64,000 nucleotides of DNA from NCBI RefSeq assembly GCF_037042905.1, contig NC_087251.1:25050001-25114000 (forward strand), given 5' to 3'. A program made the position numbers and the translations under genes. The notes beneath the pieces were generated by a model that saw only the letters and a program-made list of their open reading frames with translations, was not told where the DNA came from and ran no database searches. Origin of the DNA: Lytechinus pictus (Eukaryota). Of the stretch, positions 6,258 to 64,000 are shown one piece after another (the stretch's first letter is position 1; the number at the start of each line of letters is the position of its first letter).

Positions 6258-37399
<31,142 letters not shown>

Positions 37400-47474: not shown

Positions 47475-50439
47475 CGTTGGCACAAAGTCGGATACTAAAG
47501 TATTACCCTGTGGTATGCGGTGTCCCCTCCCGCGCCCCTTTTTCGAAGATTAAGGGTCGAAATATATCACTTTTTTACTTTTTCGCATGGAACCAAATGT
47601 CTAAAATCCTTATATTTCCCCTATTTTCTCCTTTTTTCCTTGGTCGTGAAACTTGTGGGGTCCATGGGGCTCAAGCCCCTCCCATCTGTATGCCAATGCA
47701 TCATGTGATTTGGCAAAATATAAAGCGGTGAGTTTAGATCAAAGGTGATCTCTACATAGTCGAATAATATTTTGCCAGTATTGTTTCTTATTATTTTGTT
47801 CATTACAGTGAACCGATACATATTATACTGTCAGACCACGTATTTGACCTTTGATGACCCCCATAATCTGATTATCAATTCATCTTGTATATAAAAAACC
47901 CGCCATGCTGATTCAAGGATTAATAAAAACATAATGACAAAATTATAATCACGTGACAATGTTCCCCTTTTCACGCTCATCGGTAATTTTTAATGTTTTT
48001 TTTTTTTTAACATGAAAATTATAGGCGTCATTAGAAACCAAAAAACTTTTTTTTTAATTTCGAGGATAAATATAAAATATGTATTTTTTCAACTTCTGTC
48101 CATTTCAGCAAAGCGACCCCTTATGTATAAACATGAATATCGAAAAGGGTCAATCATTTTCAACAAATTTATCATAACATGTGCCCATCACCTCTCAACA
48201 ATTGAACAGACAAAAATAATCACGGACTAAAATAGTAGCTAAATTCTTAGTAATATACGTTATAAAAATAGTTTCAGTACAAAAAAATAAGAATCTACAT
48301 GATACGTTTGACAGAGAACCATATCATAACAATTAAATTTTAAAATGTCTCACATTCGTATATGTTGTAGTATCAATATATAAGCTCAATGCATTTATGA
48401 CATAAACAATTATTACAAAGTAATGCTGTATTTCAAATCATTTGTTTCATATACAACAGGGATCCATTACAGAAAGAATTGAGATCAAACACAACTTCTA
48501 AAATCAATCGCTAGTTGATTTTCAACCAATGTAAATAATGCTCATTCGGTAACCATGGTAAACGTCATTATATAAATCTAACGCAAAGGTCATGATAGTA
48601 GTTTATGTGCATTGACCTGAAAATGTTTGATAATAGTAACAGTTATTATAAAACTATTCCTTCTTTGGGTAATGCATTTAAGCCGACAGGCATATTTTAC
48701 TTTATATTTCAGCCGTTTGTAAGATTGAGCTTAAATCTAAAAATAACTTAATCGTGTTTATGAAAAAGTCTTCATGATGAAAGTTCGAGACCACATTGCT
48801 ATTCCATTTATAATTGTGGTTTTCAATGGTATGGTAATGGTAACCATATTTAAGTGACTTAATTGGTTTGGAAACATCAATCATGTTAATAAAATGAGGA
48901 ACTGAACCACAAAATGACAAAATAGTGCGTTGATTAGCGTAGATGGATATTTCATTTCCAGTTTGTCCGACCCCTTCATCGATATTCATCCCGATGTTGT
49001 CTATATATAGGCCTATATCTCTATCAAATTGTGACGGCTTGATGATAATATAGTTCATGAACTAAGGGGTAAACATTAGTAAAGCAAATTACTCAGCTTT
49101 ATTACTATCAACTTCAAAAAATAAAAAAATACCAGATACAAGTGGATCAGCGATTCAACCATGTAAACGCTTTCCGATAGCTTCTCTTAAAATCATAAAT
49201 TTATCTTTGTGTTTTTATCATTGAAGACATATTTATGAACGAGGACAAAATGGATTCTATATAAATCATTATCGAGTTGTTTGCTTTGAGTATCAAAACA
49301 TGTGAAAGGATTTACATATGTATAAATATATATGATAAAAATAAATATGCTCATATAGATGATAATTCTGTACCCTCGCTACCGTAATACAACTTTTTCG
49401 TAGTTACAGTTTGTACAAAAATCAGATAATAATAAATTTACACAAGCAGATGATTTCATTTTCAGAATCAGCACGTCTCATAAGCGATATCGTCTATGTT
49501 CATAACATTCGGCAAAGACCATGTATAGATTTGCACTTCTACGATAATATCAAATAATGCGAAACGTCTGGATAACTGTATTGTATTTTACACAAGTTTT
49601 GTATTTAATTATTTTTATCTTAAATTTATTCCCCATCCCGAAGAAAGAAAAAAAAGGAAAAATACAAAAGACCTTAAAAGTCAATTCTAACTCATCTACT
49701 CTATTTAGACTATTTATGTATTTCAGAAGTTTTACTTTTATAAGCACTATGTTTCAATAGACTCCTTTTTCAAAAGGAAATGAAGCAAGAAGAAAAGCTA
49801 CTTTAAATATTTACAGACCCTGTATAATCACACATTTTATTTTCAGAATCTTATTTATATAGAATGAATCATTTTCATAGAGCTGAATTAAAATTATTGA
49901 ATCCCGCTATTGGCCCATCTCTTGGTTATAGATTAGGGTATTTTATCCTTATCTTCCGATCGAATATCGCAGCTGTAAAGGGCACAAAAAGTAAGAAAAA
50001 CTGAATAAAAGTGGAGAAAAGAAGAAAAAATAGTATCAGGAACAACCACATGAGCTACTCTAAATTGGAAGGGGCGCAATTGTATCACTTACCCCGGGTG
50101 CCGCTATTCCGAAACGCCACTTTGGGGTAATTTATACGTCCTCAGTTGAGAATGTTTTTGTCGGGGAGCATAGCTTTGTAAAAATGTCTTTTATTCACGT
50201 TTTCGTGCATCTTAAATGAATTTCATTGTTAACGAATCAAGATAATCTCATCCAGAACTGTTTTTAATAGCGTTCAAACTGCACTATCTCTTGATAAGGG
50301 CTATACCGTCTTCATCGTGTTCCTGTTCTTAATTCCGCAAACTCTTGAAAATAAGAGCTCTTTATATTTACTAAAATTTACTAAAATTTATTAAATTTGT
50401 TAATACCAAGACACTGTTATTGTTAGTACTGTTGAAATA

Positions 50440-51078
50440 TCACTTCACACTTCCTTGTTTGCGGCTAATATAGTTCGATATGAGACTAGCTGCGTCTTTT
50501 CGTTCGATGGCTTTTACTGCTTCTTCAATGTAAGCCAATGTATAGCCCATACTTTCACAGCAGTCTAGTAGAGTTATCGTTGGACGGGAGCTGACGATAA
50601 AACGGTGCATGAGATGGTCCAGACCTAGATAGCGTGCTAACATGCTCCAGTCGTTCCCATACTCTGCTAAATCATCAAGAAGCTGACTCAGGTCTTCCTT
50701 CAACCCCTGTGGTATGGAAGTAGATTGTGTGGCTTGGCCACTCCCATCCGTGCTCGTTTCACTCGTCGTTGTCGAGGATGAGGCCTCCCCTTCCGACCCG
50801 CCCTGATATTTCTTCTGAAAGCCGCGGGGTGTGGTCCGGGAGAGTGGGGCGAGGCGTTGTCTGAGGAGGGAGGCGTGGTAGTGTCGAAGGCTCTGTTTCC
50901 TTTGCGCCTCGCGGCGTTCCGACGTATGGCGGGCGGGAAGCGGGTAAAAGTCAAGATGCACGTAGGCATCTTCCCCTGCAATGATGGAACCCCGAGAGCC
51001 GGGAGCTGGTGTTATGAGGTGTTGAGATTGGGCCTGCCACTTGGCAATGTCGAACGGCGTGCAGTATGCACCATGCTC
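50440..51078 (-). CDS. Terminal exon: linker plus UNC5-type death domain
   Basis: IPQGLKEDLSQLLD...GNDWSMLARYLGLD...PTITLLD...ERKDAASLI death-domain pattern; GCAG acceptor; TGA at 50440-50442. Confidence 0.88.
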   Translation of the reverse strand, partial: EHGAYCTPFDIAKWQAQSQHLITPAPGSRGSIIAGEDAYVHLDFYPLPARHTSERREAQRKQSLRHYHASLLRQRLAPLSRTTPRGFQKKYQGGSEGEASSSTTTSETSTDGSGQATQSTSIPQGLKEDLSQLLDDLAEYGNDWSMLARYLGLDHLMHRFIVSSRPTITLLDCCESMGYTLAYIEEAVKAIERKDAASLISNYISRKQGSVK

Positions 51079-53293
51079 CTGCCAACAAACAATGACAAAT
51101 ACTTTGACATGCAAAACAAGATGCACTAAAAAAACAGAGAACATACATTAGAGAAGAAAAACAATAATGTAAACAAACAGCGATCAAAATAATACCAAAC
51201 CCTATCCTTTCGGGGAGGGGTGTCTCATCAGCACCTCCATGATTTCCCTATACTGTATAACACCCATGGACTTACAGGGAGTTGCCAATATGGTCTACCA
51301 AGCCGGGCCCTAACTTTTCTAACACCGTGTAGAAAAAAAACGTAAAAAATACCATACAAAATTATGGTCGTGATTTTTTGCATGGTCAGCCCGCCCCCAA
51401 CCCCCACACACACACGTTTTCAAAACCGTTCCGCAGCACCTGTATCATTCTGTAAGCCCCACTTGGCATATTACACATAAGGACAACTACAAAGTTGATT
51501 AGTTTTGTAAACATTTCATCCACGTACAATCTATTGACCTTTTTTTCTAGGCCTACACCCATGAATGAAAAAAATACGACTTTGCCGATGCATTACTAGG
51601 ATTGTGAACAATAGAGACATCGTTAACACCAGTCAAACTTTAAATTATATAATAAACCCTTCACCACTGATCATGATATTATATTCCTTCATAATAACTA
51701 AAGTGCTTACTAATGCAAAGCATAATGAATTTAAACATTATTCAATTAAATCTAGGTATATACAGTGAAATATAATTATGTTGGTCATCAGTGCGAAAAC
51801 CCATTCGTGAATGAATATCTATTGAATATTTTAATGTAAAATTAATTAATAAAGAAAAAGCAACACAAACCTAGACATTTTGTTTTAAAGGAAAGAACGT
51901 AAACACAAAAGGGAAAGGGAAATAACATAAAATAATCTAAATGAAAAAAAAAAGACTTCAAACCATGTATGAAACGCATAGAACAATAAAAAACAACTGC
52001 ACATTACGAGATAAAAGTTCAAAATATTAGTCCTGGAATGATAAAAATGCTTCCCGAAAATTTCAAGAAGGAAAAAGATACGGGTTATAAAATAACGACA
52101 AAAGGAACGAAAAACAAAGAGAACAGAGTGAATGAGAATACTAATGAAATAAAGAGAATGGGGGAAGATGAAACAGAAAAGGAAATAAATAAAGATATAA
52201 TGGGGAGAGATAAGGAGAAAGAAGAGATCGAGAGAGAGAGAGAGAGGGAGAGGGAGAGAGAGTAGAGATATATACTATGATTAAAGAGAGGTGCAGATGA
52301 TAAAAGAAAAGAAGCAAATTCAACATGACGAGCAATCGATCATTGGGTATGATTGTATCATGGACTACATGATTGTACTAATCACCTGCTTATGTCATCA
52401 TGAAATCATACAAAACTACGAAAGATGAAATTATTTTGATTTATTTTATACCCGGGCAAACCCATTAGTTAACCTGTAGTATGTCACTCGTCTTATTTTC
52501 TGTTCTGCATGCATGGACTGGGCAGTTGTAAAATTGCAATTAACATGCATGTTTTACTAACATTGTAGTGTAGTTGTGGTGGGTTATTTTTTATTGATTC
52601 CGATGAATTAGACGAAGAATTTTATATGTATATTCTTATACAAGTCTTATGCATGACATAGGGAATCTTTGAGAGGAGCGTTGGATCACCTGACTAAGAT
52701 TTATAAAATGAAAAGCTCTTTGATACCATTAAACAATGGCGCTGAGTAGCCTACAAAAGAAAATCATCAGTGCCATATTCAGAAATAAAATAATAAGCCA
52801 TAAGTTTAATATTCCATGTGGATTAATGTGTAAAAAAAATCATTTGGTCTAGTTGTAATTAGGTCTAATTTGAAAAAAAAGTGGCAGCATAGTAGTTGTA
52901 GTTGAAAGAGCAGCAGCAGCAGCACTTTGCTAAAACAACACAAGTTGTAAAATAAAATTATAGTGGTGGTGGTACAAGTAGTAGTATAGTAGCAGTAGTA
53001 AAAGTAGTAGTAGTAGTAGTAGTAGTGGTAGTAGTAGTAGTATTAGTAGTAGAATGGTAGTAGAAGTAGTAGTAGTACACTCCAAAAACAATGAGTAAAA
53101 TTTGCAATATATAGGTAGAAAGGTAACATGCATGTTTTGGGGGCATTTTTTTTACCCCATGGGCCATTTTAACGCAATATTGCGAAAAATCTACACAACA
53201 TTGGGTATCTTTTTACCCAACCAACATGCATGTTCACATTTTACCCAATATTGGGTAAACGGTCTTTTAAGGTGTATAGCAGTAGTAGTAGTA

Positions 53294-53335
<42 letters not shown>

Positions 53336-53367
53336 ATAGTAGTAGTAGTAGTAGTAGTAGTAATAGC

Positions 53368-53404
<37 letters not shown>

Positions 53405-53686
53405 TAGTAGTAGTAGTAGCAGCAGTAGAATGGTAGTACTACACTCTAAAAACATTGAGTAAAATTTGCAATATTGGGTAGAAAGGGAACATGCATGTTT
53501 GTTGGGCATTTCTTTACCCCATGTTGGGCTATTTCAACGTAACATTGCGTAAAATTTACAAAATATATATATATCTTTTTACCCAACCAACATGCATGTT
53601 CCCATTTTAACCAATATTGGGTAAATGTTTTTTAGAGTGTATAGCAGTAGTAGTAGAAGTAGTAGTAGTAGTAGAAGTAGTGGTAA

Positions 53687-53728
<42 letters not shown>

Positions 53729-53739
53729 TGGTAGTAGTG

Positions 53740-53773
<34 letters not shown>

Positions 53774-53790
53774 TGGTAGTGGTAGTAGTG

Positions 53791-53827
<37 letters not shown>

Positions 53828-53856
53828 TGGTAGTGGTAGTAGTAGTAGTGGTAGTG

Positions 53857-53890
<34 letters not shown>

Positions 53891-53960
53891 TAGTGGTAGT
53901 AGTATTAGTAGTAGTAGTAGTAGTAGTAGTAGTAGCAGCAGTAGTAGTAGTAGTAGTAGT

Positions 53961-53999
<39 letters not shown>

Positions 54000-56900
54000 T
54001 AGTAGTGGCGGTGGTGCTGGTGGTGATGGTGTAAAAAGTAGTAATAGCAGAAAAGGGTCATCATCATAATCATCACGTCGTCTTTGTCAACGTCATAGTG
54101 CAAATGCTTACTTGCTGAATAAGTTTTTAGACCAGGTGATATCAAGAATATGTGCTAAAACATTCATTAATAGTGACCGGGTGAAATTATAATTTTGATA
54201 TTATATCAAAGTTATTGATGATTATTTGACCTAATTGCAAAAACCAAATGACAATGACCAATCAACATGATCAATGGATTACATGCGAGACTTTGGGATA
54301 CCTCCTTATGATATTTCCGGGCACAGTGGCCAGTTGTGATATAATTGCGGGCAGTTTTACACATTCAAGCGATTTTGATATAAATTATGGCGTCTAAATT
54401 AACGTACCGTATGCGTTTCCTCCGTGAGTGTTTCTACAAAAACAATGCACTGTGAAAGAATTTGGGCGTGTTAGACGAAAATTTGGTATTGCAAAACTTC
54501 CCCGTTATTACAATCATGGTTAAACAAAAGGTAGACATTTCTGATTTATTAGGGTGCTTTTAAAGTATGATTTTAATATTAGAATGGTATTCGATGTTAC
54601 CAACCTTTTCTATTCGATGATTATCTCGTATAAAAAATGGAAGAAAATAAATGTTTATTTGAATTGAATTGAATTGAAATATCCTATATCATCCTTAAAA
54701 TTTTACCATTATTTTCATTGTGATTTCGGGATAACTTTACAATATCTCTATAATAACGGCTCGCAGCTGAAGAAAAGGGAATATTCATTCAAGAATTATA
54801 ATGGTAATTAAATAATTAAACAAATATGCACTGGGCAAAAAAAACCTGTAAAAGATACAGATGCCCCTTTTCTGGACCAGCATGGACTTACAATAATAAC
54901 CAACATCTTGTCTGGTTCAACGCAAAATAAACATGATATAAAGAGTCCATTATTATATGCGCGTATATAGGCCAACAGTCATGTAGAAATAATTTATATA
55001 AAAGAAATAGACAATGAGCATGGTACACGGTACATGCAGTTGTGTGCATGCTTCAAAGTTTCTGAAAATATGAGACATAACATGCAGATTTGATTCAATG
55101 AATATCGCATTGCAAAAAAAAGGAAATAAATCATATCAACAGTCAATCCTGTTATGTTGATGATGTTAGAAATTAGAAAAGGAAAGACGAGAGAAGATGG
55201 GATAGGATTAAATGCTTACTTTGGCCCATCACTGCGAGACATTCCTAATTCGTTTTGCATGCAACGAATGGGGGATGAAATGTTCATAATGCGATGTTTC
55301 TTAACACGTTGACAACTGAATTCTGAAATTTCCATAAGATTTGCATAAGATTAGCCAGTTCTAGTAGGCAACAGACTGACAATATCTGCACCGTAATGGT
55401 ATATAACTTGAATACTCCAAGCAAACTTGATGCTGCTTTGGCAACTGGTTACTCGAATCAGGACAGTTATTTTCTGACATCAAACCAAGGCTTGGCAACT
55501 CTGACCCCGGCGACTTCATCTCTCATAAGTCACTGTCGCCAGAGGACATGTTTCGAAAACCAATGTAATTGTCATAATTTCAGAAACAACAGATAATCAC
55601 CGATGCAATAATTTTCGGGGCATGCATATAGCGTCGTTGCGCAACCCGATCCGGGGGGGGGGGGAACCCGATACTTACATCAGCTAAGAAACTGAATACT
55701 GCGTTTTCCTGCCAGCTGTCTCCCCCGGTGGAATCTGTCTGTTTGAGAGTGATATTAGCTTTTCCTTGGTGAGCTGTGTTGATAAACTTCACGACCAACA
55801 TGGTGAATGGAGACTGCCAGAGCTTCTTCTGTGGGACCGTCTGTAAGGAATTCGATTTGGAAGTTTGTTTCATCCAAATTCATTCACACATACAGTAAAC
55901 AAAATAGCAAATATCAACTATTTGTGATTATATTTATCATGTATTATATTATATTACAAGCATTTTCCTCTTAAACGGGATCCTGACTTGCCTGACCTAT
56001 AGTTTCTTTCAGTGTACCATTGGATTGTTTCTCGTAACAAATTAGTTTGAAGGTGCTATAGAAGATACATATTATAGCTTAATGATGACTATATCTAAAG
56101 TAAATATGAAGTTACGCCTGTCTATGTCAAATTTAAACTAAAAGACCTTTGGTCGATAATTCACTCACCAGCACATTTAGTTGACCATTATCTAGTTGGA
56201 GACCATCAATGTCATGTAAGGTCAACGACAGATCACTCCCATCTCTCTGGATTGAAAATGATGTACTGACGTCGCTCAAAACGGCGCCGGCATTGAACTC
56301 TTTCTCTTCAATGTTCTGTTCAATTCAGGAAAGAAAATAAGAAAGGATGTCTTTTATGCGACGACGATATTTTCTGTAAGACTTAGAGACTTATGAATGC
56401 TATATATATATATGACACATATATATATCAAAATTCGTGTTTAAAATCGTGTGATATAATATATTACATTCCTGTTACGTTAATATTTCCCAAATATTTT
56501 TGTACGCGAAATTTCGATGGCGTTTTGGCATCTTCTAAATCAAAATTGAAGGATGTTGACAGTTTGGATGAAATTTTGTGAAAATTTACAATAAAAAGTA
56601 GGTTTTTTTAAAATTCCCCCTCCCCACTGTTTACGACTGTGATGCCGAACTCAATGATGACCAAATTAGTCCAGCAAAATTCTCTAAATGTGTGGAGAAT
56701 TCAAAGGAATGATTGTATTTTTTTTTAATTTACCGTCCATACAGAGTCGCTGCTGATATTATTGAAGAGATAGATATGCGCTGTAACGACCTCGGTATGT
56801 GCACTGGCTCGGGTGAAGATAGCCATCTGCATCGCCTTTCCCAGTATTCCCGGACCATCTAAAAGGAATGTATAGCTTCCTAGATGGAGAGTGGTGAGTT

Positions 56901-59572
56901 GAAGACATCGTTGCTTTACACGGCATATGATGGCCGCATTCGTCTCGGGTACCTGTCGCCAACAATCAAGGGTTTCTTGTGGATAGAATGGTGAAAAAAA
57001 GAAGGATCAAATACGTGGATAAATATTTGGTGATTGCCAGATGTATTGTTATTGTCCTAATTGATATGACTCAGAAATACTTATACAGTGCCAGAGAAAA
57101 CAAGTGTATCTTGACGTAATCTTCAAGTATCCCTCCTCGTTTATACAGGTAGGCATGGGGTTTCCAATATATGTTTCGTTTACAGCATCTATTATTTCAA
57201 ATAAAATAAATGGGAAAAAAATTAAGAACATCGTCTCACCGTCACTCTGAAGTGTTTTATGCCACAGAGTAACTCTGCATTCGTTCAGGTCACCGATGTT
57301 AGCACAGTGAGGTATCTCTAACTGCAAAGGTTTCAGAAGCGGTCTGTGGTAGTTGAAACTCCGACATTCGACGACGTGGGCGCTGTAAGCATTGATGCCA
57401 GGTAGGTCGTTACCGTTGAACACTGGGCATTCCCGCTGATGTGGTGTCACAGAAATAAAACATTTATTCTCTTTTGGAGTGTCTATGGCTCCGTGTGGAA
57501 TCCTAAGACAGAAACCAAATGCCTTCACGCATGTCCCATGACCGTCCACCTTTGTGCAAATGATCGGTACGACGTCCATTTCAATGTACGCAACTTCCTC
57601 GTTCTCACTCTCGCTCGATGCATCAGGGAAGTCATCGTCGTCGCTTTGTACATCGCTATTTTGTCGGTCGATACTTGGGACGTAGCCAGGAAGTGTCTCC
57701 GCTGGCCTAGACAGATACAGAAGGAAAAAAGAAACATTTTTGTCCAATAATACTACCTTTAAAGCTAATTAGGAGAAAGCAACAGTTTACAAGACATTAG
57801 ATTATTGCCAGAAACTGAACGGGGTTGGATTAACTTTAGTACATCTCACCTTGGCATGACTGGTGGTGGAACGTCGTCAGAACTCGGTCTGAAGATGGGT
57901 TGGAGATATCCTTGTGAGTCTCTGTCAGAGACATCGGAGCTTATTCTCCTAGCAGGTGAATGGGAACGTGGGCTTGGTATCGGTGGATCAAGTAATGGAA
58001 CCGAAACTTGCGAGGTAACCCGACGCTTGACTTCGGGCTTCGGAACTTGGGGCTGCGGAACTTCGGGTTTTTGTACATCAACCTTGGGGACGTCGGGCAA
58101 GGAGTCCTTCGTTGATCTCGAGTTCAATTGTACCTTGGTTGGAGGACATGGTAAAGGGTTTCTACTAGAAGGCCGAGGCGGTGGTTGCGGCCGAGCTATA
58201 GAACAAAATGAGGATCAAGTCGAAATCCATTTGACATTGGAACAAATACACCACAGGACATAACAATGTAATGTAGAAACATTTTCTTAAATTTACATGT
58301 ATAGAGTTTCAGTACTTTAACACAGACTATGTTAGAGGTTCTACTTCTATGTGATTGGGAGAGCTAAATAGTCCACCTTCTTGAGGTTCGTTCAGTGTAC
58401 TGGAGCATAACTGTTTAAGTTAACTTCTGACGGGCCAAAAGCACTTTGGAAGTTAAAAGATCATCTTGAGTACATGGGGGGGGGGGGTAAAAGAATGATG
58501 AAGGACCTTTAGGCTGTTAAAGTAAAATAAATGTGGAAGTTATTGGATGTAGTTAAGAAACATGAAGCACGATACTAGTAATCAATTCCACTTGCGTATA
58601 AAATCGCGTACATACCTTGACACTTGTTTGGATTACACGCCCTAAAGAGGGCTCGATACCAGGCTTGTCTCTCTGATTCGGTATCTGCGCTGAAAGTGAA
58701 CACCCTTCCAGGGGTCTTCAGAAGAAAATGAAAGCCACCCTTGGGCCATTGAGGATGATGATCACCGGTCATTATCAATGAAAAACCGTCAGTGTGGGAA
58801 CCTAGTCTCACTACCTTGATTGGGTTAGCGTCCTGTCAAAAGAATCCATGATAAATTTTATTTGAAGTATTGTGGTATAAGATGATCTTTGTTTTAAGAA
58901 TTATATAAACGCGCCAAAATAACAATATATTCTTTATTTCATCTTTCAAGTAAGTTTAAAAACATAGTTCGGTTAATAATTCAAATGTATATTTCATTCT
59001 TTTTTTATATTTTACGTTTACATGCAGCCTTAGAACGGGATAAAAGGGTGAAATAAACATTATACAAATTCTTGATATTCATGAAATAATCGAACTCGTG
59101 AGTAAAATGTGAGCATCGAATACATTGATAAAAATTAACAATTAATTATGTATGAACATTATGAATGTTAGTGATTCATCCCAAATAGTTAGACATTATT
59201 CTTTCGTTCAGACAAGACAGACGTATTTTTTCACACTTGGATGAAAATAGAACTGTTCAAGTCTGTGCGAAAATGCCTAATTTTTTCAAATAGAAATTAA
59301 TAGGAATCTAGAATTATAGTCGAGACCAAACAATTTTTGGAACCCATTTCTTCCTCATTCAAATAGAAGACAAACCCCAAGAGGGATTAATATTCAGCGA
59401 TTGTTGCTACTAACTAAACGTGGCACAATATACTTACCAGCTCATTGTTGAAGTACATTAAGCTTTTACCGTAAAGGATACACCATCTTCTCCTGAAAGC
59501 CCGCCTAGCAGAACTATCAGTCTTCTGTAAAGAGCCTTCCAAGAGAATTTCATGGTTCAGATTTTGGAGAAT
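50440..59572 (-). CDS. PH - Pro-rich - ZU5 - UPA - death domain protein (UNC5-like cytoplasmic module); exons complement(59438..59572, 58616..58832, 57850..58195, 57240..57706, 56734..56975, 56169..56315, 55679..55840, 50440..51078); 5' end probably upstream
   Basis: Eight exons with GT-AG boundaries and consistent phases (0,1,2,1,0,0,0) give 784 aa plus stop. Recognisable PH, ZU5, UPA and UNC5-type death-domain motifs appear in that order. Confidence 0.82.
52960..54045. repeat. (AGT/GGT/AGC)n microsatellite interrupted by two about 200-bp MITE copies (about 53076..53278 and 53440..53641)
   Basis: Direct inspection; MITE ends TACACTC.AAAAACA ... TTT.AG.GTGTA. Confidence 0.9.
55679..55840 (-). 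CDS. UPA domain exon (TVPQKKLWQSPFTMLVVKF...FLAD)
   Basis: CAG/GTAAGT boundaries; 'IPxxxIW' UPA-like motif. Confidence 0.8.
56169..56315 (-). CDS. UPA domain exon (NIEEKEFNAGAVLSDVSTSFSIQRDGSDLSLTLHDI...)
   Basis: CAG/GTGAGT boundaries; resembles UNC5 UPA 'ExExxLGGxL...LxLSLHD'. Confidence 0.8.
56734..56975 (-). CDS. ZU5 C-terminus / UPA start exon (ETLDCWRQV...LHLGSYTFLLDG...KAMQMAIF...HIYLFNN...VWT)
   Basis: AAG acceptor after a pyrimidine tract; aligns by eye to UNC5 'QLGTYVFTGE...KRLQLAVF...LRVYCL'; different frame from the ORF-track entry. Confidence 0.8.
57240..57706 (-). CDS. Acidic linker plus ZU5 domain exon
   Basis: VDGHGTCVKAFGFCLRIPHGAI...SAHVVEC...LLKPLQLEIPHCA is a ZU5 signature; TAG/GTGAGA boundaries. 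Confidence 0.9.
57850..58195 (-). CDS. Proline-rich linker exon (RPQPPPRPSS...DSQGYLQP...PPPVMPR)
   Basis: TAG/GTGAGA boundaries, phase 1 to 2; overlaps ORF 57846..58127. Confidence 0.85.
58616..58832 (-). CDS. PH domain C-half exon (DANPIKVVRL...FLLKTPGRVFTFSADTESERQAWYRALFRAC)
   Basis: FxLxTPxRxFxFxAxxxxExxxWxxAL PH C-terminal helix; CAG/GTATGT boundaries. Confidence 0.9.
59438..59572 (-). CDS. PH domain N-half exon (ILQNLNHEILLEGSLQKTDSSARRAFRRRWCILYGKSLMYFNNEL)
   Basis: EGxLxK...RRWCxL...LxYF is the PH beta1-beta3 signature; CAG/GTAAGT boundaries; not in the ORF track. Confidence 0.85.
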
Positions 59573-59889
59573 CTGTGCAGAGTTTCAAAATAAAATTGTT
59601 TGCTTCAGAACCAACGTCTCTACTTTTACGGGTAATGTTCATAATGTGCATTTGTCCTAGCGATGTCAGTCTGAAACGGCTTTGTAAAATTCTGTTGTCA
59701 GACTTGTGTCTGTTTTGTCTTGTCTGCATGATGTTGGTATGTTGTCTTATGTCCGTCTGGTTTCTGTTTTTTTTTTCTGTTTGTGGTAACTCCCGTAGGA
59801 ACTCGGCAGGACAGCATTTTTTTTGCGGGTAAACGCCAAGCTGGTATATAACCAATTACCTTGGAAACATTTTACGTCTAGGTTAATCA

Positions 59890-60027
59890 GTCATAGTGGC
59901 TGACGTAATAGACGACAGATATCACTCTTGGGCCTTTTTATCAAAGTGGAGACAATGGCAGAGTTGGTTTTCGAACTCACAACCTTGCGATTATGAGTCC
60001 AATGCTCTAACCACTGGACCACACGAC
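59890..60027 (-). mobile_element. tRNA(Met)-like SINE head / tRNA pseudogene
   Basis: GTCGTGTGGTCCAGTGGTTAGAGCATTGGACTCATAATCGCAAGGTTGTGAGTTCGAAAACC: A box, CTCATAA loop and B box, but the stems do not close properly. Confidence 0.65.
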
Positions 60028-60037
60028 TAGTCGATTT

Positions 60038-62421
60038 CAGGGGCGGAAATCTCTCCCAGAAGGTAGGGGGGACACAGGTGCGGATCAAGCCTTCGCCAAT
60101 AGGGGGGGGGGGGCGGAAATTTGTTTCAGCCATATTTTCCCCGATCGGCAGCTCGAAGATGATTTTTGTTTGTTTCTTTGAAGGGGTAGTCCTCATTAGT
60201 CACTTCTTAGCTTAATTTATTCTCATAAATTGATATATAATATCATAATCCTTATTTATATGATGCGAGCGCGAAGCGCGAGCTAATTTTTTGGAAATGT
60301 TATGTATTTTTTCATAAAATTTGAACATTCTGGGCAATGTTTGTTATTCTAAAAAGATGTGTATGCAACTTAATAATTACTACGAACGCAAAGCGCGAGC
60401 AGAAATGAACTGATGGAAAAGATACCTGTTAAAGTAGCATTTAACAATCAAATAATGCGAGCACGAAGTGCGAGCTAATTTTTTTTTTACATTTTGACCT
60501 AAAGAATGGAAATTCTAAGCACTTTTTGTAACTAAAGCAGAATAGGTATACAAGTAAACAATTGATGCGAGCGCGAAGCGCGAGCGGAAAATTTCGAGAT
60601 TTAGTCCTATAATATTTACTGAACGAGACACTCTATTCATGTTTTGTAAATCATGAAAAGGATGAGAATTAATAATGCGAGCTCAATACGCGAGCAGAAA
60701 ATTTTTATATACGTTTTCAACTGGTACCTGTTGAAAAGGGAAATGTTAAGGACTGCTTGCACTTAGCCATGAAGGCGTTACATATTTCAACAATAAAAAA
60801 ATGAGAGCGCGAAGCGCGAGCTGAAATTTTTTTGAACTTTCTAAAATAAGAATGGAAAATTTTAATCAGTTTTTGTAATCGTGAACAGGATAGCTATATA
60901 ATTTAATAATTGATGCGAGCGCGAAGCGCAAGCAGAAAAAAAAATCGAGATTTAGACCTAAAAATGGGCCACTCTGTTCATGTTTTGTAAATCATGAAAA
61001 GGATGAGTAATATGGGGTCTTCCTACATTAATAATGCGAACACAAAGCGCGAGCCGAAAATTTTTGATATTGTGATCTGAAACTGGATAATGATTTAAAT
61101 AGAGAACAAGTTGAGTATCTGAATAAACATAGGCATTCTAAATACATCTTTAATCATGAAAATCAGGAAACTTTGATATTCTGATCTGAAAAAGTAAATT
61201 TCAGCTTTATATTTCAAGCACTTTGTAAAAAAATTGTAAGGTGGATATGGATTGCACTTAAAAAAGTGTTGATATTTTTATTATTATTACTCTGAGTTTT
61301 GACATAGGACCGGGACATCCATACGACATGTCATCATATGAAAATGATGACTATCTTCCTATTCCTCTTGCTAAGCGAGATGAAACAAAAGGGACAATTT
61401 GATTATTAAATTAATATCATATTTATTAATGCCTAATGAGGGCGCAAAATCTGATGATATTATGGCATAAAAACTGAACATTTCACTTTTGTAATTATGA
61501 TTAAGATGCATCAGTTAATATATTTTCAACCATTAATGCGAGCGCAAATCGCGAGCTAAATTTTTTAATAAACTGTCATGAAAAGGGGATTTTAAGTAGT
61601 TTATTGTATAATCAATATTGAAACATAATTATATAAGTCGCCAATCAAAATGCGAGCGTGCAGCGCGCTAGCTGATACGTCTTAACAATCAGACCTGCAA
61701 AGGGCTATTTTGAAAACTTTATGAAATATACGAAAATAATAGGTACCTGATAAATCAAAATTTGCGAGCGCGCAGCGCAAGCAGCAAATGTTAATATTCA
61801 GACCATAAAACTGACATTTTTACAGAGCACTTTAAAAAAATCAATTTGTAAATCACACAAAATAATGAAAGTTCGATTTCCGAGGTGAAATATGTTTTGT
61901 ATATTGACTTCCAAACTTGACATTCGAGCTCCATATTGAACAAGATATGTAAATCAACTAACAGGCAATGCGAGCGCGAAGCGCGAGCGAAAATTTTATA
62001 TAGTGGCACGAAAGATTCTTTTTATTTTCCAAGTCTTCCCCTCATCTTATTTTATGCATTCGTCGTCCTTCTCTTCTTTTTCTCCTCTCTTTTCCCTCCT
62101 TTATTCCTTTCTTCTTTCCCTTTTTCTTTTTTTTGCTCCGCCAAGAAGAGGGGGGGCGGGCCCCTCGCCCCCTGGTCCGCCTAAGGGGACAAGGGGCGGG
62201 AAAATTTGACAAGCAAAAAAAAAAGGTTATCATCCCAAAAGTAAGGTCATCTCGTCCCAACTCGTCCCCAAATACATGTTTTATTTCGATTTAGAATGCT
62301 GTATTTCTTACCATCATAAAAGACCAAAAATAGTAGGGGGGACATTTGATATTGTGTCCCCCCTACTATTTTGAGTAGGGGGGACACGTCCCCCCTGTCC
62401 CCCCTGGGATTTCCGCCCATG
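60038..62421. mobile_element. hAT-like non-autonomous element with a nested element (about 60075..62185) carrying about 12 GCGAGCGCGAAGCGCGAGC-like motifs
   Basis: TIR CAGGGGCGGAAAT ... ATTTCCGCCCATG; perfect 8-bp TSD GTCGATTT (60030-60037, 62422-62429). Confidence 0.85.
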
Positions 62422-62569
62422 GTCGATTTGACAGTCCCATAGGCTCAATACACCAACCTAGAAAAGTTCTTTCCGATGAAGTTTTTTTCTTGATTCGTGT
62501 TCCTATGGGGTCCTAGAACAAATTCAGCTTGGTTGCCCAAAGTTGCCGTTTGGGCAATTTTGCTAATTT

Positions 62570-63100
62570 GCATAAATCCAAAATGGCCGCCAGATGCCAT
62601 CTTAAAAACTTAACTTTTGAACCCCTTGCCCCAAAATGATGAGTAATGACTCTTTTTAGGGGTTTAGGAGTGTGTAGAATCCATTTCTATAATCATTTTT
62701 GCAATATAAGGTCATCTTCAGGTCAAATCAAAGATGGCCGCCAGATGCCATCTTGAAAAATTGACTTTTGATCCCCTTGCCCCATAATGACGAGTAATAC
62801 CTCTGTTTAAGGGTTTTGGGGTGTGTAGAATCTCTTTCTGCTATCTATTTTGCAATATAATGTCATCTTCAGGTCAAATCCAAGATGGCCGCCAGGTGAT
62901 ACCATTTTGAAAAAAAATTACTTCTGAACCCTTTGTTCAAGAATCATGAATAATACCTCTTTTCGTGAGTTATTTGATATGTTGATTCCATATCTGTTAA
63001 TAATTTTGCAATATAGGATCATTCAGATGAAGAAAAAAAAAGATGGCCGGTAAACGCCATATGAAAAAAAAACTATCCCCCGAGACTATTGAACCTTGAA
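62570..63100. repeat. Degenerate tandem repeat of about 150 bp (4 units) with AA(A/G)ATGGCCG(CC) cores
   Basis: Cores at about 62580, 62731, 62882 and 63040, most followed by ..CCATCTT.AAAA..ACTTTTGA.CCC. Confidence 0.75.
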
Positions 63101-63281
63101 GAAGTACTCTCCCCAAAATCGGACATGCTGTCCTAAAGAGATTACTATTATGTGTAGGAGCTCATGTAAGGGTATTTCAGTAAGAATGATTCATTTCTTT
63201 TAATTTCTCCATTTTCAGTGGTCAATAAAGTAAGGTCTGATATGGTAAGATGGTTGATATATTTTGTAATTTACCGCTCAC

Positions 63282-63359
63282 CTTGGAATGAAACCATTCA
63301 AGGTTTGGGCTATGACCTATTTCGGGAGTTCTCATAGTTATTTTTTTATGTCCAGCCAT
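63282..63359 (-). CDS. Candidate first coding exon of the PH-ZU5-UPA-DD gene (MAGHKKITMRTPEIGHSPNLEWFHSK)
   Basis: AATATGG Kozak-like ATG, 26 open codons, strong AAG/GTGAGC donor, phase 0 matching the acceptor at 59572; no homology support. Confidence 0.45.
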
Positions 63360-63469
63360 ATTTTTCTTGTGAAAGGACTTCAAAGTATTATTTTTAACTA
63401 AATAGTGATTTCTCAGTATTTTTCAGAAAATCTGTTAACTTATTACCTTCCTTTATAATTACCATTGGA

Positions 63470-63822
63470 CTTTTCGTCCTGACAAAAGCCTTTGACTTGG
63501 TTGCACGAGTGTACTTTTTAGCCTCCTGTAGAAGACAGGCTCCCCAAGACTGATCCATGGTCATATCATTCCATGTCAACAGTTTGCTACAATACTGGAA
63601 CATCTTGTAGCTTCCCTCAGTTCCTGTGAGCAGTGGCGTGAATCAATTAGGCTGCGCCTGGCCCTGACACTCAGGATCTTCTTCTCCATGCTTCCCCAGT
63701 ATGCACTTGGCGAATGCACAGAATGCATCTACCTATCCGTACCAGAGCAGATGGGAAACTCTTCAACATCGACCGGCTACGTGCCAAAACAATGGTCAGG
63801 ACGGTTCTCATTCGTGAGATGT
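63470..63822 (+). mobile_element. Decayed RTE-clade LINE reverse-transcriptase fragment
   Basis: Frameshifted peptides LTKAFDLVAR, MVISFH, PVSSGVNQ.GC, IFFSML, RTRADGKLFNIDRLRAKTMVRTVLIREM, typical of RTE/BovB RT up to just before the FADD motif. Confidence 0.85.
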
Positions 63823-64000
63823 CGCCCCTGCCTTTCATAAAGAAGCTGGAGTAGGCCTACAAGACCTAGTCATACAGCCGCCTGTTTTTTGCATGTAGGC
63901 CCCTACATGATGGAAGGAGTTTGAATGACCCATCAGCCTGTAAGACAGAAATCCTGATCGACTCAAGACACTGACTGTCCTCCAGATATCTCTATCAACA

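What the first reader, a model, noticed from the sequence alone, without database searches (positions are those of the whole stretch)
50440..63359. PH-ZU5-UPA-Death domain protein: an UNC5 signalling supramodule on a PH-domain anchor instead of a receptor ectodomain
Seen: eight phase-consistent exons, several missing or in the wrong frame in the ORF track, encode PH, a Pro-rich/acidic linker, ZU5, UPA and an UNC5-type death domain (GNDWSMLARYLGLD, PTITLLD). There is no signal peptide or transmembrane segment in the assembled part. Established: ZU5-UPA-DD is the cytoplasmic supramodule of UNC5 netrin receptors, ankyrins, PIDD and UNC5CL. There it is coupled to Ig/TSP/TM, ankyrin repeats, LRRs or a TM anchor. 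Inference: I do not recognise a characterised protein with an N-terminal PH domain on this module. It could be a lipid-recruited death-domain adaptor for apoptotic or innate-immune signalling. The basic beta1-beta2 loop (QKTDSSARRAFRRRW) fits phosphoinositide binding.
Basis: partly seen in the sequence, partly recalled or inferred. Interest (0 to 1): 0.8.

Follow-up and report, generated by a model that had tools for sequence, protein, structure and literature searches.

The report
Sea-urchin ADAP-like protein with death domain
The window holds the back two-thirds of a sea-urchin gene that joins a centaurin-alpha/ADAP-type lipid-binding module, whose ArfGAP domain lacks its catalytic arginine, to the ZU5-UPA-death-domain unit of UNC5 receptors, a combination seen only in echinoderms and never studied.

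Summary
The PH, linker, ZU5, UPA and death-domain exons are real and lie on the minus strand at 50440-59572. There are eight constitutive exons plus one 42-nt alternative exon. Six more exons lie 2.8-20.7 kb beyond the window's right edge and encode an ArfGAP domain and a first PH domain. Positions 59573-63359 are intron.

The full 15-exon GT-AG model gives 1084 aa. It matches a RefSeq "uncharacterized protein" of Lytechinus pictus at 1081 of 1084 residues. Residues 23-397 align end to end with human ADAP1/centaurin-alpha-1. Residues 564-830 superpose on the ZU5-UPA of UNC5B, and the death domain is closest to UNC5B's.

The ArfGAP arginine-finger position is not Arg in any of 8 orthologues, while the zinc-finger cysteines are kept. 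Orthologues occur in sea urchins, starfish, a brittle star and a sea cucumber. No other protein with this architecture turned up. No paper on it was found.

My reading is a cytosolic, phosphoinositide-recruited death-domain scaffold with a catalytically dead ArfGAP domain. The architecture is shown. The mechanism is inferred.

The parts
59438..59572 (-). Exon 7 of 15 (aa 287-331): first half of the second PH domain (PH2), with the basic beta1-beta2 stretch
   Evidence: GT-AG model; tblastn 100% to P0001 aa 286-331; Pfam PH E=7.4e-4 on this frame alone
58616..58832 (-). Exon 8 (aa 332-404): second half of PH2
   Evidence: Pfam PH E=8.9e-6; joined to exon 9 without a gap in transcript contigs of runs X1 and X16 (table 8)
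57850..58195 (-). Exon 9 (aa 404-519): proline-rich linker (25% Pro), no Pfam family
   Evidence: spliced to exons 8 and 10 in X1 record 1 and X16 record 7
57240..57706 (-). Exon 10 (aa 519-675): acidic stretch, then the ZU5 domain ending in the invariant H-C/S-A
   Evidence: Pfam ZU5 E=7.1e-7, 29.8 bits; H652 and A654 invariant in 8 orthologues; fold match to UNC5b
56734..56975 (-). Exon 11 (aa 675-755): UPA domain, first part
   Evidence: tblastn 98.8%; model residues 564-830 align to UNC5b 541-803, Z=13.8
56169..56315 (-). Exon 12 (aa 756-804): UPA domain, middle part
55679..55840 (-). Exon 13 (aa 805-858): UPA domain, last part
54408..54449 (-). Exon 14: 42-nt in-frame alternative micro-exon (aa 859-872), present in RefSeq isoform X1
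   Evidence: tblastn E=6.3e-4; GT-AG and phase 0. S. purpuratus isoforms carry or skip a short 6-aa segment at the same place
50440..51078 (-). Exon 15 (aa 873-1084 plus stop): S/T-rich linker and UNC5-type death domain
   Evidence: Pfam Death E=3.3e-9. The best solved relatives of the DD are UNC5B 3G5B (E=4.8e-8) and 1WMG
59573..64000 (-). In-window part of intron 6 (the intron runs to window-equivalent 66777). It is not coding for this gene and is repeat-rich
   Evidence: no tblastn match to P0001; no Pfam hit on frames 63222-63422 and 63394-63642; repeat-type read pile-ups; 151-bp tandem repeat

Best explanation
The window holds exons 7-15 of a single 15-exon, roughly 34-kb minus-strand gene of a Lytechinus sea urchin. 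The gene encodes a cytosolic 1084-aa protein with the order ArfGAP zinc finger, PH1, PH2, Pro-rich and acidic linker, ZU5, UPA, S/T-rich linker, death domain. It is an ADAP/centaurin-alpha module fused to the UNC5-type ZU5-UPA-DD supramodule.

Shown: the architecture, its splicing, its conservation in four echinoderm classes, and the absence of the ArfGAP arginine finger in all 8 orthologues.

Inferred mechanism: the two PH domains recruit the protein to 3-phosphoinositide-rich membranes, as in ADAP1. The ArfGAP domain cannot stimulate GTP hydrolysis. It serves instead as a zinc-stabilised binding surface, possibly for Arf-GTP or a kinesin-FHA-type partner as in the ADAP1-KIF13B structure. The ZU5-UPA-DD unit behaves as in UNC5B: a non-cleaving, probably self-closed module whose death domain, once released, recruits other death-fold proteins. 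Predicted isoforms without the death domain would act as non-signalling forms. I put the architecture at about 0.95 and the mechanism at about 0.35-0.4.
For: Gene model. There are 15 GT-AG exons. The translation equals RefSeq P0001 (L. pictus LOC129264688 X1) except A459V, R539Q and T691I.

Splicing. Contigs X1 record 1 (3900 nt) and X16 record 7 (1000 nt) join exons 10, 9 and 8 at exactly the modelled junctions with 0 mismatches. Depth bins over exons 7 and 6 (X1 1.76 and 3.23) fit the same 11.1x contig by my arithmetic. P0002 is a full 1057-aa orthologue read from contigs of at most 4939 nt, so these must be spliced transcripts.

ADAP module. Pfam gives ArfGap 59 bits and PH 86.6 bits. phmmer to ADAP1 3FEH covers aa 23-397 at E=2.9e-41. 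The profile search gives E=6.4e-68. Foldseek to 3LJU gives E=7.6e-20 and VIA gives Z=20.6. All 10 next-best HMMER hits whose names I looked up are ADAP-length proteins of 354-393 aa; 5 of them are named ADAP1/2 or ADAP-like, from scallop, fish, an arachnid and a sponge.

Dead GAP. The Arg of 'IHR' in ADAP1 and ACAP1 aligns with E62. That position reads E,E,E,C,Y,Q,Q,E in the 8 orthologues, so 0 of 8 are Arg. All 4 canonical ADAPs aligned have Arg there. C34-x2-C37-x16-C54-x2-C57 is kept, and an extra CxxCxxC (C26, C29, C32) is invariant in the 5-sequence alignment A2.

PH2 basic residues. K303 and R315 are invariant, and FRRRW aligns with FRKRW of ADAP1.

ZU5-UPA-DD. Pfam ZU5 and Death both hit. 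The profile hit to UNC5B 3G5B has E=1.1e-12 in 2 stretches. Foldseek to 3G5B gives E=7.2e-11 and to ankyrin-B ZU5-ZU5-UPA-DD 4D8O gives 1.3e-4. VIA to 3G5B gives Z=13.8 over 238 residues. The Atlas gives 0.95 to a ZU5/UPA/Death cluster.

No conserved [HS]F[ST] at the ZU5 C-terminus, judged against the cleavage-site description in PMC3210808 (passages read).

Range. Named orthologues come from Strongylocentrotus, Diadema, Acanthaster, Patiria, Amphiura and Apostichopus. The score then drops from E=1e-248 to 1e-17.
Against: No functional data exist. The full-length AlphaFold model is poor (mean pLDDT 48.5, pTM 0.32, alignment of 5), so domain packing, including a closed ZU5-DD state, cannot be read.

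Loss of the Arg finger is inferred from alignment. An arginine supplied from elsewhere is not excluded. Lipid specificity is inferred from conserved basic residues only.

Two raw-read RNA-seq runs of the same species label showed 0 reads on exons 8-10, with about 6% of each run read, so expression is low or restricted in those samples.

The exon 6-7 junction, which links the in-window part to the out-of-window part, was not displayed as a listed piece in this species. It rests on depth arithmetic, on the RefSeq model and on full-length orthologues.

ZU5 domains can also bind spectrin, as in ankyrin. A cytoskeletal role fits the same domains.
Confidence: 0.55

Rival explanations
1. Membrane-traffic or cytoskeleton linker rather than a death or immune adaptor. 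The ADAP module works in Arf6/PIP3-dependent trafficking, with residual or trans-complemented GAP activity. The ZU5-UPA-DD module tethers it to spectrin or another cortical scaffold, as in ankyrins. The death domain would be a structural or regulatory element only.
For: Ankyrin-B ZU5-ZU5-UPA-DD (4D8O, E=1.3e-4) and the AnkB/beta4-spectrin complex (6M3Q, E=6.7e-5) are among the fold matches. An 'ankyrin-3-like' cluster scores 0.91 in the Atlas. The ADAP1 structures found include a kinesin KIF13B complex, which is a transport context. Predicted DD-less isoforms exist in two species.
Against: The best match of both ZU5-UPA and the DD is UNC5B, not ankyrin. The Arg finger is missing in 8 of 8 orthologues. 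The DD is conserved in 7 of 8 orthologues across four classes, including the invariant GNDW-type core.
Confidence: 0.25
2. Autoproteolytic sensor of the PIDD / UNC5CL / FIIND (NLRP1, CARD8) kind. The ZU5 domain would cleave itself and release a UPA-DD fragment that signals after degradation or displacement of the N-terminal ADAP part.
For: FIIND clusters appear among the Atlas look-alikes at 0.86-0.90. These families share the ZU5-UPA layout (PMC3210808, passages read). Echinoids have an SFS tripeptide at aa 774.
Against: At the C-terminus of ZU5, before its last strand, where cleavage occurs in CARD8, NLRP1 and PIDD, all 8 orthologues read H-C/S-A. This has no Phe and no Ser/Thr at the third place. 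The echinoid SFS lies about 100 residues further on, inside UPA, and reads SFF or KFF in starfish and the brittle star.
Confidence: 0.07
3. The protein begins with the PH domain seen in the window, so a lone PH domain is the membrane anchor of a ZU5-UPA-DD adaptor of roughly 800 aa.
For: An internal promoter in the 7.2-kb intron 6 giving an N-terminally short isoform cannot be excluded. The in-window exons alone give PH2-linker-ZU5-UPA-DD.
Against: Exon 7 starts in phase 0 directly after a splice acceptor, and its frame has no start context matching any model. All named full-length orthologues carry ArfGAP and two PH domains. The proposed upstream frame at 63222-63422 matches nothing.
Confidence: 0.03
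4. Annotation artefact. Two neighbouring genes, an ADAP-like gene and a ZU5-DD gene, are wrongly merged by gene predictors.
For: Most orthologue records are computational predictions. One is flagged LOW QUALITY.
Against: Spliced contigs join PH2 (exon 8), the linker (exon 9) and ZU5 (exon 10) with 0 mismatches in two runs from different studies. Transcript-length contigs encode the whole orthologue, 1057 aa on at most 4939 nt. The same order of domains is found in 8 species, with a conserved linker-ZU5 junction. There is no stop or start at the junctions.
Confidence: 0.03

Closest known systems
ADAP1 / centaurin-alpha-1 (ArfGAP with dual PH domains; PDB 3FEH, 3LJU, 3FM8, 3MDB)
   Same: The N-terminal 400 residues have the same domain order and align end to end (aa 23-397 against 34-371), at E=2.9e-41 and 6.4e-68 with the profile, and VIA Z=20.6. 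The CX2CX16CX2C zinc finger and the basic PH residues are kept.
   Different: The Arg finger is replaced in 8 of 8 orthologues. An extra conserved CxxCxxC lies in front of the zinc finger. The ArfGap Pfam score is about half that of canonical ADAPs (59 against about 115 bits). About 680 further residues follow, comprising linker, ZU5, UPA and DD. The urchin genome also keeps a canonical ADAP gene on another contig, C10.
UNC5B netrin receptor, cytoplasmic ZU5-UPA-DD supramodule (PDB 3G5B)
   Same: It is the best solved match for ZU5-UPA (Z=13.8, 238 residues, rmsd 4.2 A) and for the DD (E=4.8e-8). The best non-family database hit for the C-terminal part is also an UNC5C-like receptor. Like UNC5B, it has no autocleavage motif.
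   Different: It has no Ig or thrombospondin ectodomain and no transmembrane segment. A long S/T-rich insert of about 130 aa separates UPA from the DD. Sequence identity is low, at 15-18%.
UNC5CL (ZUD) and PIDD1
   Same: These are non-receptor (UNC5CL membrane-tethered, PIDD1 cytosolic) proteins that use ZU5(-UPA)-DD for NF-kB or caspase-2 signalling. This is recalled knowledge apart from what PMC3210808 says of PIDD.
   Different: Both depend on HFS autoproteolysis in ZU5, according to my recall for UNC5CL and PMC3210808 for PIDD. The echinoderm protein has H-C/S-A there. Their N-terminal parts (a TM anchor, LRRs) are unrelated to ADAP.
Ankyrin ZU5-ZU5-UPA-DD (PDB 4D8O) and DTHD1
   Same: They share the supramodule fold (Foldseek E=1.3e-4). 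A DTHD1 cluster scores 0.91 in the Atlas.
   Different: It has a single ZU5 and no ankyrin repeats. The matches are weaker than to UNC5B.

Membership tests
ADAP (ArfGAP with dual PH domains / centaurin-alpha) | ArfGAP domain with CX2CX16CX2C zinc finger | tested here: met
   Pfam ArfGap 59 bits against a cut-off of 28.7. C34-x2-C37-x16-C54-x2-C57 aligns with ADAP1.
ADAP (ArfGAP with dual PH domains / centaurin-alpha) | Catalytic arginine finger directly after the zinc-finger His ('HR') | tested here: not met
   E62 aligns with the Arg of ADAP1 and ACAP1. 0 of 8 orthologues have Arg there, while 4 of 4 canonical ADAPs do. That this Arg is the catalytic finger is recalled knowledge.
ADAP (ArfGAP with dual PH domains / centaurin-alpha) | Two consecutive PH domains after the GAP domain, with basic beta1-beta2 residues | tested here: met
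   Pfam PH, 2 stretches, 86.6 bits. The alignment to ADAP1 is continuous through both PH domains. Lipid binding itself was not tested.
ADAP (ArfGAP with dual PH domains / centaurin-alpha) | Protein of about 370-390 aa ending after PH2 | tested here: not met
   The protein is 1084 aa with about 680 further residues. In the NJ tree the long proteins form their own clade (100/100), whose place among ADAPs is unresolved.
UNC5 netrin receptors | Ig and thrombospondin ectodomain plus a transmembrane helix | tested here: not met
   No such Pfam families were found in P0001, P0002, P0003, P0153 or P0154. The maximum 19-aa hydropathy is 1.21.
ZU5-UPA-DD supramodule (UNC5 / ankyrin / PIDD type) | ZU5 domain | tested here: met
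   Pfam ZU5 gives 29.8 bits on the exon and 27.1 bits on P0001, against a cut-off of 21. P0153 is also above the cut-off at 29.6 bits. P0154 is just below at 20.5 bits.
ZU5-UPA-DD supramodule (UNC5 / ankyrin / PIDD type) | UPA domain directly after ZU5 | tested here: met
   It is met by fold, not by Pfam. Model residues 564-830 align to UNC5b 541-803 with Z=13.8 and 238 residues. Pfam UPA appears only at E=0.0093, below the cut-off, in P0005. The model's local pLDDT is 50-80.
ZU5-UPA-DD supramodule (UNC5 / ankyrin / PIDD type) | C-terminal death domain | tested here: met
   Pfam Death gives 37.2 bits on the exon, against a cut-off of 22.6. UNC5B DD hits at E=4.8e-8. The DD is present in 7 of 8 orthologues.
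ZU5-UPA-DD supramodule (UNC5 / ankyrin / PIDD type) | Closed, auto-inhibited packing of ZU5 against UPA and the DD | not testable with these tools
   The full-length model has pTM 0.32, so inter-domain geometry is unreliable.
Autoproteolytic ZU5 proteins (PIDD, UNC5CL, FIIND of NLRP1/CARD8) | [H/S]-F-S cleavage motif at the C-terminus of ZU5, before its last strand | tested here: not met
   All 8 orthologues read H-C/S-A there, and no conserved [HS]F[ST] is present. The site definition comes from PMC3210808 (passages read). The positional equivalence is by alignment and secondary structure, not by a residue-level structural superposition.

The most novel reading that the evidence does not exclude
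An echinoderm-specific signalling node that couples membrane phosphoinositide or Arf state directly to death-fold signalling. A pseudo-ArfGAP (zinc finger kept, Arg finger lost, extra Cys cluster gained) would act as an Arf-GTP or cargo sensor beside two PIP3-type PH domains. Engagement at the membrane would open an UNC5-like closed ZU5-UPA-DD module, so that its death domain nucleates an apoptotic or innate-immune complex. DD-less splice isoforms would act as built-in antagonists. This would be an UNC5-style dependence-receptor logic without any receptor, driven from the inner leaflet.
Probability: 0.2. Interest if true: 0.7.

Novelty: new variant of a known kind. Interest (0 to 1): 0.45.

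Why it matters
Both halves are well-studied modules, but they are not known together. ADAP proteins link PI3K and Arf6 signalling to trafficking. ZU5-UPA-DD is the auto-inhibited signalling unit of UNC5, PIDD and ankyrins. A conserved fusion, present in at least four echinoderm classes, with a systematically disabled GAP site is a natural experiment. It bears on how death-fold signalling can be wired to membrane lipid state and on how GAP domains become pseudo-enzymes. Lytechinus pictus can be reared and genetically manipulated (recalled knowledge), so the gene is directly testable. It is nevertheless one of many lineage-specific death-domain shuffles in invertebrate deuterostomes, so a specialist would find it interesting rather than startling.

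Tried and rejected
- **ZU5 against solved structures.** phmmer of the ZU5 exon alone against the PDB gave 0 hits at E<=10. A narrow 3-sequence ZU5 profile (A3) gave only chance-level FlgG hits at E of about 1. I could therefore not get a residue-level sequence alignment of the ZU5 C-terminus to UNC5B.
- **Run index.** The look-up of sequencing runs listed no holder on record as RNA. Eight contig runs of 'organism A' held 0.24-0.28 of the words, which equals the exon share of the stretch.
- **Raw RNA reads.** Runs X20 and X21 gave 0 reads on exons 8-10, with about 6% of each run read.
- **Exon 6-7 junction.** Read laying did not list pieces over exons 7 and 6; 2094 pieces and 49 joints were not shown. 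That junction rests on depth arithmetic only.
- **Tree tools.** treekit and the ML tree programs could not be loaded twice. A Biopython NJ tree with 100 bootstraps was used instead. It does not resolve where the clade attaches among ADAPs (support <=28).
- **Full-length AlphaFold model.** It is too poor for inter-domain conclusions. I did not fold the C-terminal part alone, because only whole stored proteins or single window frames are clearly admissible.
- **RNA genes.** Rfam and ARAGORN found nothing in 50000-64000.
- **Earlier findings.** The search of earlier findings returned nothing for this place.
- **Literature.** Searches found no paper that describes an ArfGAP or centaurin plus ZU5 plus death-domain protein. 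The papers listed were seen as search listings only and use the terms in unrelated contexts. Subscription journals and supplements were not covered.
- **Possible start exon.** The frame at 63222-63422 was rejected.

Full report
**What is in the window.** Stop-to-stop frames on the minus strand between 50440 and 59584 carry recognisable protein domains. Pfam finds PH in two separate frames (59414-59584, E=7.4e-4; 58575-58835, E=8.9e-6). It finds ZU5 in 57049-57768 (E=7.1e-7, 29.8 bits, cut-off 21) and Death in 50440-51147 (E=3.3e-9). The Pro-rich frame 57846-58214 has no family. GC content is 29-49% across the window. The exon-intron structure and the database matches below show a sea-urchin genome.

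**The gene is larger than the finding.** A search with the ZU5 frame for longer proteins returned three echinoid proteins of 1055-1084 aa. The best is RefSeq 'uncharacterized protein LOC129264688 isoform X1 [Lytechinus pictus]' (P0001), 98% identical. Pfam on P0001 gives ArfGap (aa 19-133, 59 bits), two PH domains (169-262 and 297-397), ZU5 (578-667) and Death (1000-1075).

tblastn places only aa 286-1084 in the window. The window is C7:25050001-25114000 of its assembly. A search of that assembly places aa 1-294 in six further exons at C7:25116751-25134710, which is 2.8-20.7 kb beyond the window's right edge. No second locus matches. After fetching those stretches, tblastn gives 100% identity for aa 1-115 and matches the remaining upstream exons up to their splice boundaries.

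A scripted search for GT/AG boundaries yields one 15-exon model. All donors are GT and all acceptors AG. The 1084-aa translation differs from P0001 at three residues only: A459V, R539Q and T691I. The in-window exons are 59572-59438, 58832-58616, 58195-57850, 57706-57240, 56975-56734, 56315-56169, 55840-55679, the 42-nt alternative exon 54449-54408, and 51078-50443 followed by the stop. Phases are consistent.

The upper part of the stated span, 59573-63359, is intron 6. The candidate start frame at 63222-63422 matches nothing.

**Transcript support.** No listed run is on record as RNA for this stretch. Eight contig runs of one organism label nevertheless hold 0.24-0.28 of the sampled words, which is the exon share of the 9.2-kb query. 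I laid reads on L009, which covers window 57200-67000. Contig 1 of run X1 (3900 nt, depth 11.1) lies on L009 41-506, 650-996 and 1417-1632. Its own coordinates there are contiguous (1842-2307, 2308-2654, 2655-2870) and it has 0 mismatches. These segments are exons 10, 9 and 8, joined at the modelled junctions. A 1000-nt contig of run X16, from another study, does the same.

The pieces over exons 7 and 6 were not listed, because 2094 pieces were not shown. The X1 depth in the bins that hold them (1.76 and 3.23) equals what an 11.1x contig over 51 and 99 nt would give. The 1030 nt of the contig beyond exon 8 equal the summed length of exons 1-7 (993 nt) plus 37 nt. Both points are my arithmetic and inference. 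Two raw-read RNA-seq runs showed no reads on these exons, with about 6% of each run read.

Independent support comes from relatives. P0002, a full 1057-aa orthologue in the S. purpuratus cluster, was read from contigs of at most 4939 nt. P0186 (928 aa) comes from a 7317-nt contig. These are too short to be anything but spliced transcripts.

**The N-terminal half is an ADAP module with a disabled GAP site.**
- phmmer of P0001 against solved structures gives human ADAP1/centaurin-alpha-1 (3FEH, 3FM8) at E=2.9e-41. One alignment covers aa 23-397. A 5-orthologue profile raises this to E=6.4e-68.
- The AlphaFold model is poor overall (mean pLDDT 48.5, pTM 0.32) but has domain blocks at 50-80. It matches 3LJU, centaurin-alpha-1 with the PIP3 head group, at Foldseek E=7.6e-20 and VIA Z=20.5-20.6.
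- In an exhaustive HMMER search of 1.84 billion representatives, the hits after the orthologues and fragments are proteins of about 370 aa. I looked up the names of ten of them. Five are named ADAP1/2 or ADAP-like and come from scallop, fishes, a pseudoscorpion and a sponge. The rest are unnamed or hypothetical proteins of the same length.
- In the HMMER alignments, the Arg of 'IHR' in ADAP1 and in ACAP1 aligns with Glu62. That this Arg is the catalytic finger of ArfGAPs is recalled knowledge.
- Across eight orthologues that position reads E,E,E,C,Y,Q,Q,E, so none has Arg. All four canonical ADAPs in alignment A1 have Arg there.
- The zinc-finger spacing C34-x2-C37-x16-C54-x2-C57 is kept. Three further cysteines just upstream (C26, C29, C32) are invariant in alignment A2.
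- The ArfGap Pfam score is about half that of canonical ADAPs: 59 against about 115 bits.
- The basic residues of both PH domains are conserved. KRGRD...KRW aligns with ADAP1's KRGRD...SRK, and K303...FRRRW aligns with K...FRKRW.
- The same genome also has a canonical ADAP gene on contig C10, 53-60% identical exon by exon to a sea-cucumber ADAP1-like protein. This gene is therefore an additional paralogue, not the urchin's only ADAP.

**The C-terminal half is an UNC5-type ZU5-UPA-DD.**
- The best solved relative of the death domain is UNC5B: 3G5B at E=4.8e-8 and 1WMG at E=7.1e-5. NF-kB p105 follows.
- The orthologue profile hits 3G5B at E=1.1e-12 in two stretches.
- Foldseek ranks 3G5B directly after the centaurin entries (E=7.2e-11, 532 columns). 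It also lists ankyrin-B ZU5-ZU5-UPA-DD (4D8O, E=1.3e-4).
- VIA-align gives 3G5B Z=13.8, rmsd 4.2 A, 238 residues, model 564-830 on chain 541-803. This spans ZU5 plus UPA as one unit.
- Pfam's UPA model does not reach its threshold. Its best result is E=0.0093, in the sea-cucumber protein.
- The language-model Atlas gives 0.95 to a cluster with ZU5 in 100%, Death in 96% and UPA in 76% of members. Lower scores go to ankyrin-3-like, DTHD1 and FIIND clusters.
- The profile search's best non-family hit for this part is an UNC5C-like receptor of a gastropod (E=1.4e-13).
- There is no transmembrane-like segment or signal-like N-terminus.

**Autoproteolysis is unlikely.** According to PMC3210808 (passages read), CARD8 and NLRP1 cleave at SF|S and PIDD and Nup98 at HF|S. 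[quoted passage not shown] The second Ser is required, and non-cleaving UNC5b has Leu at the Phe position. At the corresponding place all eight echinoderm proteins read H-C/S-A, with H652 and A654 invariant. No [HS]F[ST] is conserved. The echinoid 'SFS' at aa 774 lies inside UPA and is SFF or KFF in starfish and the brittle star.

**Distribution.** Named orthologues are:
- S. purpuratus LOC582857, with isoforms of 1060, 1054, 933 and 843 aa
- Diadema antillarum
- Acanthaster planci LOC110987868 (993 and 855 aa)
- Patiria miniata LOC119741456 (998 aa)
- Amphiura filiformis (1008 aa, flagged low quality)
- Apostichopus japonicus PIK43140.1 (813 aa, an older model without the DD)

All are labelled uncharacterized or hypothetical, apart from an automatic ARAP1-type name on one UniRef entry. 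This covers four of the five living echinoderm classes. Crinoids were not seen.

In the profile search the score falls from E=9.7e-249 (brittle star) to 9.5e-17 (ARAP2). Of the 34 other hits longer than 450 aa from the exhaustive search that I scanned, none combines ArfGap with ZU5, UPA or Death (3, 8, 23). Only the best 150 of 1824 hits were visible, so very divergent members could have been missed.

An NJ tree of the ADAP part puts the five long proteins in one clade (100 of 100 bootstraps). It does not resolve where that clade joins the other ADAPs (support <=28). Predicted isoforms lacking the death domain exist in S. purpuratus (X3, X4) and Acanthaster (X2).

**How it most likely works.** The shown facts are the architecture, the lost Arg finger, the kept zinc finger and PH basic residues, the UNC5B-like non-cleaving ZU5-UPA-DD, and conservation across classes at 29-34% identity between classes over the full length. 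From these I infer the following.
- The dual PH domains bring the protein to 3-phosphoinositide-rich membranes, as in ADAP1 (3LJU is the PIP3-head-group complex, by its title).
- The GAP-like domain acts as a binding module, not an enzyme. ADAP1's own structures include a complex with the KIF13B FHA domain (3FM8 title).
- The ZU5-UPA-DD acts as a regulated death-fold adaptor.

A cytoskeletal-linker role in the manner of ankyrin is the main rival. An autoproteolytic sensor, a PH-only short form and an annotation artefact are much less likely, for the reasons given under the rivals.

**Novelty and verdict.** The two modules are textbook. Their fusion, with a systematically disabled GAP site, is not described in any paper I could find. 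Only open-access full text and bioRxiv were covered, and the listed papers were seen as listings only. The fusion exists in public databases only as unnamed predictions. I rate it a new variant of known kinds, of moderate interest. Its interpretation needs correcting, because the 'PH anchor' is a whole ADAP module whose first six exons lie outside the window.

Noticed in passing
window 29927-36124 (+): A single open frame of 2065 aa on the plus strand, K/S/P/E-rich and of low complexity, with strongly positive AT skew (about 0.3) over 30-34 kb. It is probably a giant exon of a neighbouring gene and is unrelated to the finding.
   Followed up: no
window 59489-62431 (L009 2290-5232), inside intron 6: Repeat-like segments with very high read and contig depth. 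Depth reaches about 334x in RNA-seq run X20 and thousands in summed contig depth. Many reads end at L009 2825-2828, and a frequent joint runs 2868->4986. These look like expressed interspersed repeats rather than exons of this gene. ARAGORN and Rfam find nothing there.
   Followed up: partly
window 50700-51011 (-), alternative frame of the last exon: A second frame of the last exon stays open for 103 aa. It matches the C-terminal tail of the predicted DD-less isoform X3 of the S. purpuratus orthologue. An alternative acceptor giving a frame-shifted, death-domain-less protein may therefore be conserved between two urchin genera.
   Followed up: partly
window 52977-54006 and 62574-62895: Long trinucleotide microsatellites, (AGT)n and (TAG)n with up to 121 copies, lie in intron 14. 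A 151-bp unit repeated 2.1 times lies in intron 6.
   Followed up: no
G000:C10:1428551-1491806 (+), outside the window: A canonical ADAP-type gene of the same genome. Its exons are 53-60% identical to a sea-cucumber 'arf-GAP with dual PH domain-containing protein 1-like'.
   Followed up: partly
protein P0058 (687 aa, organism unknown), a hit: Another unusual ADAP-like fusion: ArfGap, then PH, then a TRIM-type coiled coil, then PRY-SPRY.
   Followed up: no
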